A stretch of DNA of 62,781 nt, counting the filler, from Pirum gemmata (taxonomy: Eukaryota): the NCBI GenBank assembly GCA_002812295.1. It is 30 parts of 30 records of this genome, joined end to end, with 100 filler letters (N's around TTAATTAATTAA, not from the genome) between each part and the next. Parts side by side here need not be neighbours in the genome. Positions count along the whole stretch, not along the records: positions 43,657 to 45,611 come from PDIN01009753.1; 29 more parts are not named here. One strand, given 5' to 3'. The notes under the pieces are model-generated. The model searched no databases, was not told the DNA's origin, and saw only the letters and a program-made list of their open reading frames with translations. The position numbers were made by a program, and so were the translations under genes. The stretch's first letter is position 1. Every line of letters begins with the position of its first letter. Positions 43,657 to 45,471 of the stretch are shown here, piece after piece.

Positions 43657-43770
43657 CAACAATACAACAACAACAATAATAACAACAAAAACAACAACAA
43701 CAACATCAGCAATAACAACAATAATAACAATAACAACAACAATAACAATAACAACAACAATAACAATAAC

Positions 43771-43822
<52 letters not shown>

Positions 43823-44404
43823 GTGATAACCATTTCCCTCAATATTACAAAGAAAACATAACTATTGCAGAACAAAAGAAAATTATAACCATAGTAGAAA
43901 AATACATCATGAACAACAACAAAATTGGATATGGTGGTACAGCAATTAATAATTTACTTTCTGAACAAGACCGGTTTTACAATTTTACTAAAGAAATACC
44001 TGATTATGATTTTTTTTCAACCAACGCTAAACAGGATGCCATGGAGTTAGTGGATATACTTCATAGTTTCGGTTTCAAAAAATCTTTTCTGCATACCAGT
44101 ACATTTCACGAAGGAACCTTCAAAGTTTATGTTGGGAAATTGGCAGTCGCAGATATTTCCAATGTTAATAAAAGTTTTTTTTCAATACTTGAACAAGGAA
44201 AAGTTATGGATGAGAATGGCATGTGGTTTGCGCCTATCAATTACTTAAGAATGGATTTAGTGAAAGAGTTAAGTCGACCTGAAGGTAACACAAAGCGTTG
44301 GGGTAAAGTAGCGAAACGGTTAGCGTTATTAAACAAAAACCATCCTTCTTTATTAAATAAAGATAAATCTGATCAAGAATTTTGTTTAGCATTCTCTGAA
44401 AACC

Positions 44405-44438
<34 letters not shown>

Positions 44439-45471
44439 TTATTTCAATTCTCAACATAAAAAGATTCTTGACCTCACTAGAGCACATATGAAAGATAAAG
44501 ATGCTATTTTTATGCCGAAAATAACGATCAATATGAATAAAAAACGTAATCATAACAGTGAAAAAAACGTTGGTAATAGTACTAGTACTGATACCAGTTC
44601 GTTGCATTACAAATTTTCCGATGACTATGTTGAAGTAATTGTGTTAAATATTTCGGATGCTATCACTGGTTTAAGAAAAAAACTAACAAAAGAAAACCCA
44701 TTACTCCGAGTAAATTATATTTATAATAATAATGAATATAGTAACAACAATGGCATCATCGGCAACCGTGATGAAGACAAAGTAGTACAATTTATCGAAA
44801 TTCAACTCGTTTACAATCAAACTTTTCAACACACTATTGCCTACGTATATAGAAGTACTGCTTGTTCTGCTTTCGAGCTCAAAACTGTCGACACTCTACA
44901 AAATATTAAAGTGGCTACAACCAATACAATGATGGATTATTATTTAGGAGCTTCTTTTAATAGTAACAACAAAAATTTAGAAAAGCATGAAATGGAGAAA
45001 AATAGAATGCTTTGTTCAGCTCATTGGCTTATGCCTGCACAGGCCAAAGACCAAGAACGGCAGCACCGATTGATGGAACTTGGGGCGACTACTCCATGCC
45101 AAGGGATTGAGACTTCTGACTTCCTCGAAATTATGGGTAGAAAAAGAAAGTTATACGCAGAATATAAACAAGAAATACAACAACAACAACAACAACAACA
45201 ACAACTTGATCGTAAATATAATGATATGTTTTTTTGTTATTCTCCAAAGCCACAACCATTGAGTTATTGCCTTGCTAAATTACAGAAGAGTTATCAACCC
45301 CGATCTAGTTATAAAAATATCAACGCAAGCATTATTTTTAAATACGTTACGTCAGGATCCTTTGTTGTACTTAATATATTGTTTGGTTTCATTTTGGCCT
45401 TATTGTCTATATTTGGTTTTAGAAAAGAAAAACATTTATTCAATGGGATTCAGAGAAAACAGCAACAGTAA
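43657..45471 (+). CDS. NCLDV/Mimiviridae-type poly(A) polymerase catalytic subunit homologue with C-terminal TM helix (5' end in gap)
   Basis: Frame is open from the scaffold start; KKIITIVEKYI...YGGTAINNLL...FY...EIPDYDFFS.NA..DA.EL.D...HEGTFKVYV...VADIS...APINYLRM...ELSRPEGNTKRWGKVAKRLALLNK.HP. Confidence 0.88.

What the first reader, a model, noticed from the sequence alone, without database searches (positions are those of the whole stretch)
43657..45471. Apparently domesticated giant-virus-type poly(A) polymerase in a eukaryotic genome
Seen: an uninterrupted ~600-codon frame, open upstream of the listed ATG, with the nucleotidyltransferase signature YGG...PDYDF and a third Asp in VADI, plus ELSRP.G...RW.KV..RL.LLNK. 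Known: this motif set characterises the Mimiviridae/NCLDV poly(A) polymerase (mimivirus R341 type), not the canonical eukaryotic PAP or Trf4/Gld2. Seen: host-style polyN and two polyQ tracts are inserted in frame, with no stops, whereas other virus-like pieces in the window are decayed. Inference: a viral PAP captured long ago and kept under selection as a host RNA-tailing enzyme.
Basis: partly seen in the sequence, partly recalled or inferred. Interest (0 to 1): 0.9.

Follow-up and report, generated by a model that had tools for sequence, protein, structure and literature searches.

The report
Membrane-anchored viral polymerase kept by protist
A single-celled relative of animals carries an intact giant-virus-type poly(A) polymerase gene and a very divergent second copy, both ending in a predicted membrane anchor that the viral relatives lack, so the host likely captured the viral enzyme long ago and likely re-used it as a membrane-bound nucleotide transferase.

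Summary
The 604-codon stop-free frame and all named motifs are there. Pfam PF19244 (E 1e-29) and the predicted fold (Z 22.9 to mimivirus/megavirus PAP) make it a giant-virus-type poly(A) polymerase, not a eukaryotic PAP or TENT. The window is 30 unrelated ~2-kb contigs joined by linkers: flanks say nothing, and the gene's 5' end is missing. A host gene in the window is letter-identical to a Pirum gemmata protein, so the best hit (P. gemmata, 36% identical) is a paralog, not an ortholog. The two copies form one long branch and keep the catalytic domain (60% identical) while D3-D4 drift (25%). Both replace the basic RNA-binding tail with a C-terminal transmembrane-like helix absent from all 127 other homologues, lack the viral N-terminal helix, and conserve all six cysteines. 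The complete paralog starts with a signal-peptide-like leader. Domestication is likely (about 0.8). Expression, topology and activity are untested, and only one species holds it so far.

The parts
43657..45471 (+). 5'-truncated ORF, 604 codons plus TAA, of an NCLDV-type poly(A) polymerase homologue; start codon lies beyond the contig edge
43666..43821 (+). in-frame polyN tract of mixed AAC and AAT codons (22 AAC, 27 AAT), where viral relatives have a conserved N-terminal helix
   Evidence: helix motif in 84 of 117 homologues, in neither cellular copy
43861..44349 (+). catalytic domain D2 (P0001 14-176); PF19244 covers residues 24-154
43930..44013 (+). YGG...PDYDF signature with catalytic D61 and D63
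44092..44109 (+). HTSTFH loop shared by both cellular copies, replacing the viral E[AG]K[SA]GxH motif (96 of 117 homologues)
44146..44157 (+). VADI with third catalytic aspartate D111
44266..44337 (+). ELSRPEGNTKRW..LLNK helix pair; GN replaces viral GD in both cellular copies
44404..44436 (+). polyQ run 1 (11 Q), in frame, between D2 and D3
44434..45249 (+). duplicated nucleotidyltransferase-like domain D3 and D4; second FFGG..PDFD motif lost; C348, C398 and C426 invariant in 117 of 117 homologues
45178..45204 (+). polyQ run 2 (9 Q), in frame
45223..45270 (+). DMFFCYSPK..PL.YC block shared with the paralog; new cysteines C472 and C483, in 0 of 117 homologues at these columns
45355..45420 (+). 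predicted transmembrane helix (residues 512-533) followed by RK and a 16-residue tail
45517..45522 (+). AATAAA 49 nt from the first base of the stop codon; possible host polyadenylation signal, weak evidence in AT-rich DNA
45563..45611 (+). near-pure AAT microsatellite at the contig end, as on other host contigs of the window
43557..43656 (.). assembly linker (N44-TTAATTAATTAA-N44) that cuts off the 5' end; not biological
45612..45711 (.). assembly linker at the 3' side; not biological

Best explanation
This is an intact giant-virus-type poly(A) polymerase gene in the genome of the ichthyosporean Pirum gemmata that was likely captured long ago, duplicated and kept by selection, and its product is predicted to be a single-pass membrane nucleotidyltransferase whose active site likely faces the ER/Golgi lumen or the cell surface. 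Shown: family, fold, intact metal-binding triad, a second intact copy in the same species, and a C-terminal hydrophobic helix in both. Inferred: a signal peptide (seen only in the paralog; this copy's 5' end is unsequenced) carries the enzyme into the lumen and the C-terminal helix stops transfer, leaving a short basic cytosolic tail; six conserved cysteines form disulfides; with the dimerising N-terminal helix and the basic RNA-binding tail gone, the enzyme would act distributively, moving AMP or another NMP from an NTP onto a hydroxyl of a lumenal protein, glycan or surface RNA rather than building long mRNA tails.
For: Family and fold. Paralog in the same species. One long branch, SH-aLRT 100 in two quick trees of 46 and 48 rows. 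Selection: D2 60% against D3-D4 25% identical, whereas 2,726 viral pairs at the same D2 identity keep 43 +/- 9%; 0 of 300 neutral-decay runs stayed stop-free at either 63% or 40% identity. Host marks: codon-use r 0.88 to five host ORFs, reached by 3 of 75 viral PAP genes; Q or N runs of 8 or more in 0 of 117 homologues. Membrane anchor: 19-residue hydropathy 2.57 and 2.26 against a maximum of 1.12 in 127 other homologues and 0.29 in 68 complete viral-locus ORFs. Signal-peptide-like leader in the paralog, in 0 of 129 other stored proteins and 0 of 68 viral ORFs by my simple rule. Six of six cysteines shared by the two copies; megavirus PAP has a D3-D4 disulfide C350-C426 (PMC4402537). K+R in the last 60 residues 8 and 8 against a mean of 20.7. 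Cellular-type motifs: 0 matches in IMG/VR against about 3,500 for the viral version.
Against: The signal peptide rests on one gene model and on a hand-made rule, not SignalP; this copy's N-terminus is unseen, and a long polyN tract fits a cytosolic protein at least as well. Charge bias across the helix is small in this copy (+2 before, +4 after) and slightly reversed in the paralog (+3, +2). The paralog has no excess of N-glycosylation sequons (3 in 556, viral mean 0.52 per 100). Three of the six cysteines are already invariant in viruses. No expression data were obtained. No homologue in any other eukaryote appeared (one search lists 120 of 246 hits; one search found only the query), so retention is shown within one species only. 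Both trees are quick searches with long branches and no root.
Confidence: 0.45

Rival explanations
1. Domesticated, but tail-anchored with the active site in the cytosol: it would add A tails to mRNAs at the ER or organelle surface, doing in one chain what TENT5 is proposed to do through membrane-bound FNDC3.
For: A C-terminal helix with a 13-16 residue tail and no other hydrophobic segment in the sequenced part is classic tail-anchor anatomy. 50 of 81 virus-conserved columns are kept in both copies, mostly around the ATP and metal site. RNA and ATP are plentiful on that side. TENT5 precedent: PMC11193744 passages.
Against: The paralog's only Met before the active site opens a signal-peptide-like leader. 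Two new conserved cysteines suit an oxidising compartment. Basic tail and N-terminal helix are lost; D1-deleted mimivirus enzymes are inactive monomers (PMC4402537).
Confidence: 0.3
2. Not domesticated: both copies are leftovers of endogenised giant viruses from an unsampled lineage whose PAP-like protein had already gained the anchor; selection acted in the virus, and the host copies are recent and silent.
For: Intronless frame; flanks unknown on a 1,955-base contig; ichthyosporeans do endogenise giant viruses (PMC11244446); 40% identity lies within the spread of viral PAP pairs; the 3' end folds better than shuffles (z -2.5, 5 of 200).
Against: Three host-style repeat tracts grew in frame while seven A or T runs of 6-8 bases stayed in frame; host-like codon use; no anchored or motif-switched PAP among the viral sets; ViralRecall gave no reliable hit in Pirum (PMC11244446), though a fragmented assembly weakens that; the nearest viral PAP genes show no 3' hairpin (0 of 30) and 2 of 29 random tiles fold as well.
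Confidence: 0.15
3. The contig belongs to a free virus or another organism co-sequenced with the host.
For: Short unplaced contig with a viral-type gene only.
Against: GC 29.5% and terminal AAT microsatellite like the other contigs; host codon use and polyQ/polyN as in neighbouring host genes; a second, very divergent copy under the same species name.
Confidence: 0.04
4. An old eukaryotic nucleotidyltransferase family inherited vertically, from which viruses took their PAP, or a soluble host PAP.
For: The trees are unrooted and put the pair outside the sampled viral rows, so direction of transfer is not shown by them.
Against: No other eukaryote among the listed hits; ESM Atlas clusters of the family are 96-100% viral; the fold is shared with mimiviruses, asfarviruses and poxviruses; no eukaryotic PAP or TENT Pfam family at E 0.1; the hydrophobic tail argues against a soluble protein.
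Confidence: 0.06

Closest known systems
Mimivirus R341 / Megavirus Mg561 poly(A) polymerase (PDB 4WSE, 4P37; PF19244)
   Same: D2-D3-D4 fold (Z 22.9 and 22.8, about 372 residues aligned), long-spacer hG[GS]..DxD signature, third aspartate.
   Different: No D1 equivalent next to D2, no basic tail, added C-terminal hydrophobic helix, host genome; 15-18% identity in the structural alignments.
PAPs of aquatic Nucleocytoviricota from metagenomes (best named structural match: Pyramimonas orientalis virus 01B PAP)
   Same: Nearest sequence relatives, about 30% overall and 47% mean in D2; one checked locus (L043) sits two genes from an NCLDV major capsid gene.
   Different: They keep an N-terminal helix, E[AG]K[SA]GxH, a second FFGG..PDFD motif (91 of 117) and a basic tail; none has a membrane anchor.
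TENT5/FAM46 cytoplasmic poly(A) polymerases with FNDC3
   Same: Analogy only: a tailing enzyme held at the ER membrane (PMC11193744 passages).
   Different: Unrelated family (TENT5B Z 6.8), soluble and recruited by a partner.
FKRP/fukutin/LicD lumenal nucleotidyltransferase-fold enzymes and the ER AMPylase FICD
   Same: Analogy only: nucleotide-using transferases working inside the secretory pathway (FKRP location recalled; FICD from search listing).
   Different: FKRP Z only 5.6, no LicD Pfam hit; FICD has a different fold (recalled); these are N-terminally anchored (recalled).
Giant endogenous viral elements of Amoebidium appalachense
   Same: Giant-virus genes in an ichthyosporean genome; the paper suggests domestication for some JmjC genes (PMC11244446).
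   Different: Those are mostly silent methylated blocks; no poly(A) polymerase is mentioned in the passages or the two supplement files searched.

Membership tests
NCLDV-type viral poly(A) polymerase (PF19244) | Pfam score above curated cut-off | tested here: met
   103.4 bits against 30.2; paralog 95.5 bits
NCLDV-type viral poly(A) polymerase (PF19244) | hG[GS]x(n)Dh[DE]h signature with long spacer and third acidic residue | tested here: met
   spacer 21 residues (23 in mimiviruses, 13 in vaccinia per PMC4402537); D61, D63, D111 align to the Mg561 triad
NCLDV-type viral poly(A) polymerase (PF19244) | duplicated nucleotidyltransferase-like D3 and D4 domains | tested here: met
   model 11-478 aligns to chain 42-472 of 4WSE, Z 22.9, rmsd 3.5; model pTM 0.81, built on an alignment of viral homologues
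Mimivirus-type self-processive PAP | N-terminal D1 dimerisation helix directly before D2 | tested here: not met
   polyN occupies that place here; structural match starts at chain residue 42; helix motif in 84 of 117 homologues, in neither cellular copy
Mimivirus-type self-processive PAP | highly basic D4 and tail for RNA binding | tested here: not met
   D4 core net charge +1 in both copies against viral mean +6.4, minimum +1; K+R in last 60 residues 8 against 20.7; this copy's post-D4 segment is still +9
Mimivirus-type self-processive PAP | homodimer and processive poly(A) synthesis | not testable with these tools
   no complex prediction could be run; no assay
Canonical eukaryotic PAP and TENT (Trf4, Gld2, TENT5) | PAP or TENT Pfam domains and fold | tested here: not met
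   only PF19244 at E up to 0.1; TENT5B Z 6.8 against 22.9 for viral PAP
LicD/fukutin/FKRP lumenal transferases | LicD domain | tested here: not met
   no Pfam hit at E up to 0.1; FKRP Z 5.6
Giant endogenous viral element | cluster of viral hallmark genes, silent and methylated | tested here: inconclusive
   contig of 1,955 bases holds this gene alone; CpG observed/expected 0.84, within the 0.61-1.02 of five host ORFs
Type I membrane protein | cleavable signal peptide plus C-terminal stop-transfer helix | tested here: inconclusive
   helix in both copies; leader seen only in the paralog, by a simple rule; 5' end of this copy unsequenced
Domesticated viral gene | expressed from a host locus under purifying selection | tested here: inconclusive
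   protein-level constraint and host marks; expression, flanks and dN/dS not obtained

The most novel reading that the evidence does not exclude
A giant-virus mRNA-tailing enzyme was captured by a close relative of animals, duplicated, rerouted into the secretory pathway and turned into a lumenal or cell-surface nucleotidyltransferase that adenylylates proteins or glycans or tails surface RNA: a new class of ecto-nucleotidyltransferase of viral origin.
Probability: 0.35. Interest if true: 0.88.

Novelty: new variant of a known kind. Interest (0 to 1): 0.7.

Why it matters
Well-supported domestications of giant-virus genes are few and hard to test (PMC11244446, discussion passage). This would be a core viral mRNA-processing enzyme kept as a two-gene family by a unicellular relative of animals, with a change of compartment written into its architecture. 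Either topology is new for the family in the searches made here: a lumenal or surface nucleotidyltransferase built from a polymerase, or a self-anchored ER poly(A) polymerase converging on TENT5. Both are cheap to test with recombinant protein and existing RNA-seq. It also records past infection of this lineage by an aquatic giant virus.

Tried and rejected
Flank analysis: impossible, the window is a chain of unrelated contigs and no whole genome is held. Orthologue reading of the best hit: my first reading (sister-species orthologue) was dropped when a window gene proved identical to a P. gemmata protein. More cellular copies: none from P0003 residues 150-556 (a low-sensitivity search that missed even the window's own protein), from pattern scans of JGI metagenomes or IMG/VR (one search returned 600 stretches and may not have covered the collection), or from the ESM Atlas with the paralog's last 157 residues. 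The profile search of 1.84 billion representatives never ran, and shorter or longer forms were not searched. Bacterial origin: 12 loci in GTDB, all in MAGs; 8 of 12 have flanking ORFs matching viral PAP neighbourhoods; of the other four, three were scanned with Pfam without a clear viral hallmark and one (L212) was not; read as mostly mis-binned viral contigs, by inference. Mimivirus-type 3' hairpin: inconclusive. A recalled claim of kinetoplastid homologues of the catalytic subunit was not borne out: the passages found concern the small regulatory subunit (PMC3163472; PMC3493329). The careful tree did not finish. No Rfam match in the window; no meaningful NCBIfam match. Earlier findings of this scan: four look-ups, nothing returned.

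Full report
Observation. The + strand frame runs without a stop from 43657 to TAA at 45469-45471, 604 codons. I numbered residues on P0001, the translation from 43822. The first ATG (43909) falls inside a helix conserved with homologues, so the start lies further 5'. The window is not a continuous locus: it is 30 contigs of about 2 kb joined by N44-TTAATTAATTAA-N44 linkers. The gene fills contig 43657-45611 and is cut at its 5' edge. The claim of decayed viral neighbours found no support: no NCLDV family in the other 14 frames or the 55, and 681 ORFs from viral PAP neighbourhoods matched only this gene.

Family. PF19244 is the only Pfam hit (E 1.4e-29) and megavirus PAP 4P37 the only PDB sequence hit (E 3.8e-10), with D61, D63 and D111 on its catalytic triad. 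Of 246 homologues, 120 were listed: the window's own protein, one P. gemmata protein (313 bits, 36% over 97%), then mostly unnamed metagenome proteins at up to 202 bits. Relatives are abundant in IMG/VR (593 of 600 scanned stretches), and the one neighbourhood I annotated holds an NCLDV major capsid gene. ESM Atlas clusters are 96-100% viral. The AlphaFold model (pTM 0.81) matches mimivirus and megavirus PAP first, then vaccinia VP55, Pyramimonas orientalis virus PAP among viral models, and aligns over D2-D4 at Z 22.9 against 6.8 for TENT5B and 5.6 for FKRP. The model was built from an alignment of viral homologues, so it is not fully independent of the sequence result.

Host and paralog. The ammonium-transporter ORF at 12368-14038 is identical at 403 of 403 aligned residues (one 9-residue gap) to a protein its source names Pirum gemmata. 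The host is therefore P. gemmata, and the best hit P0003 is a paralog. A published P. gemmata assembly, from axenic culture, is fragmented and holds 17% of BUSCO genes, and that of its relative Abeoforma 11.9% (PMC5560861, passages; section 27), so more copies, or orthologues in Abeoforma, could be missed.

Evidence for retention. The two copies are sisters on a long stem in two quick trees (SH-aLRT 100; 46 rows chosen from 119 and 48 from 187 by identity thresholds); the trees are unrooted, carry a long-branch warning and name no donor. Shared derived residues back the grouping: of 81 columns conserved in at least 90% of 117 homologues, 50 are kept in both copies and 15 changed in both, 9 of them to the same residue. 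The cellular motifs HTSTFH and GNTKRW have no match in IMG/VR, while the viral form has about 3,500. D2 is 60% identical between the copies and D3-D4 25%; viral pairs with similar D2 identity keep 43 +/- 9% (2,726 of 6,786 pairs). Neutral decay to 40% identity left a mean of 29 stops and never none in 300 runs. This shows selection along the path between the copies, not that it acted in the host. Host residence is suggested by codon use (r 0.88; 3 of 75 viral genes as high; polyQ codons may inflate it), by three in-frame repeat tracts (0 of 117 homologues; 2 and 3 of 681 viral-locus ORFs have Q or N runs) and by the AAT microsatellite and AATAAA downstream. ViralRecall found no reliable giant-virus region in Pirum (PMC11244446, passages; two supplement files searched). 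Expression was not tested.

What changed. Both copies end in a hydrophobic helix followed by RK and a 13-16 residue tail (hydropathy 2.57 and 2.26; maximum 1.12 in 127 other homologues; 0.29 in 68 complete viral ORFs; the sets may overlap). The paralog begins with a basic-hydrophobic-V-x-S leader; 0 of 129 other stored proteins pass the same simple rule, and its model leaves residues 1-40 unresolved. Both lack the N-terminal helix motif of 84 of 117 homologues, the second FFGG..PDFD motif of 91 of 117 and most of the basic tail. In mimiviruses, deleting D1 gives inactive monomers, the basic D4 is proposed to bind RNA, and C350-C426 is a disulfide (PMC4402537, parts 3-5 of 7 read); whether the helix of the nearer relatives does D1's job is my inference. 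All six cysteines are shared by the two copies: three invariant in viruses, two new near the anchor, one (C188) off the viral column.

Mechanism. The most economical reading is a type I membrane protein with an intact NTP- and metal-binding site in the lumen or outside the cell, acting as a distributive nucleotidyltransferase on a new acceptor (0.45). The main rival is a tail-anchored cytosol-facing tailing enzyme, analogous to TENT5 with FNDC3 (0.3; PMC11193744, passages). Against the lumenal reading: the leader is seen in one gene model only, charge bias is weak or reversed, and sequons are not enriched in the paralog. A silent relic of an unsampled virus lineage remains possible (0.15). The two copies may also differ in topology.

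Novelty. Ten full-text searches (listings only, except the six papers named here and in Tried and rejected) showed no report of a cellular PF19244 gene, of this Pirum family, or of a membrane-anchored viral PAP; 'PF19244' occurs in no paper of the library. The library lacks most subscription papers and bioRxiv supplements were closed; a large survey of virus-eukaryote transfers (Irwin and colleagues, recalled, not seen) could list the gene in its tables. Verdict: a real, likely domesticated viral PAP homologue with a new architecture; new variant of a known kind; interest 0.7.

Noticed in passing
whole window: 30 unrelated contigs of about 2 kb joined by N44-TTAATTAATTAA-N44 linkers; any neighbourhood argument across linkers in this genome is invalid.
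   Followed up: yes
window 12368-14041 (+): Ammonium transporter ORF, 557 codons without a stop; the database gene model starts 143 codons later and removes 9 residues, probably a false mini-intron; a 59% identical paralog exists.
   Followed up: partly
L204:2893-4290 (+), with 4619-5185 and 5140-5553: An NCLDV-type PAP homologue on a 108-kb contig of a bacterial MAG lies next to a sigma-70 region 2 protein (E 2e-11) and a deaminase; mis-binned giant virus, large phage or true transfer is unresolved.
   Followed up: partly
P0004-P0121 (alignment A1/A3), domain D3: 91 of 117 aquatic NCLDV PAPs keep an FFGG..PDFD-like motif in the duplicated D3 domain, which is degenerate in mimiviruses; a second active site is possible.
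   Followed up: no
window, contig ends at 31219, 35466, 39545, 49685: TTAGGG arrays at several contig ends, telomere-like or interstitial.
   Followed up: no
window 47852-49054 (+), 53009-53806 (-), 34096-35365 (-), 36430-37380 (-), 16381-16668 (-), 30934-31176 (-): Ordinary host gene pieces: LHFPL-like membrane protein with polyQ, GATA zinc finger, trypsin-like protease, NAD-dependent epimerase, ankyrin repeats, serine aminopeptidase.
   Followed up: no
window 45440-45562 (+): Two hairpins at the gene's 3' end, one burying the AATAAA; z about -2.6, matched by 2 of 29 random tiles.
   Followed up: yes
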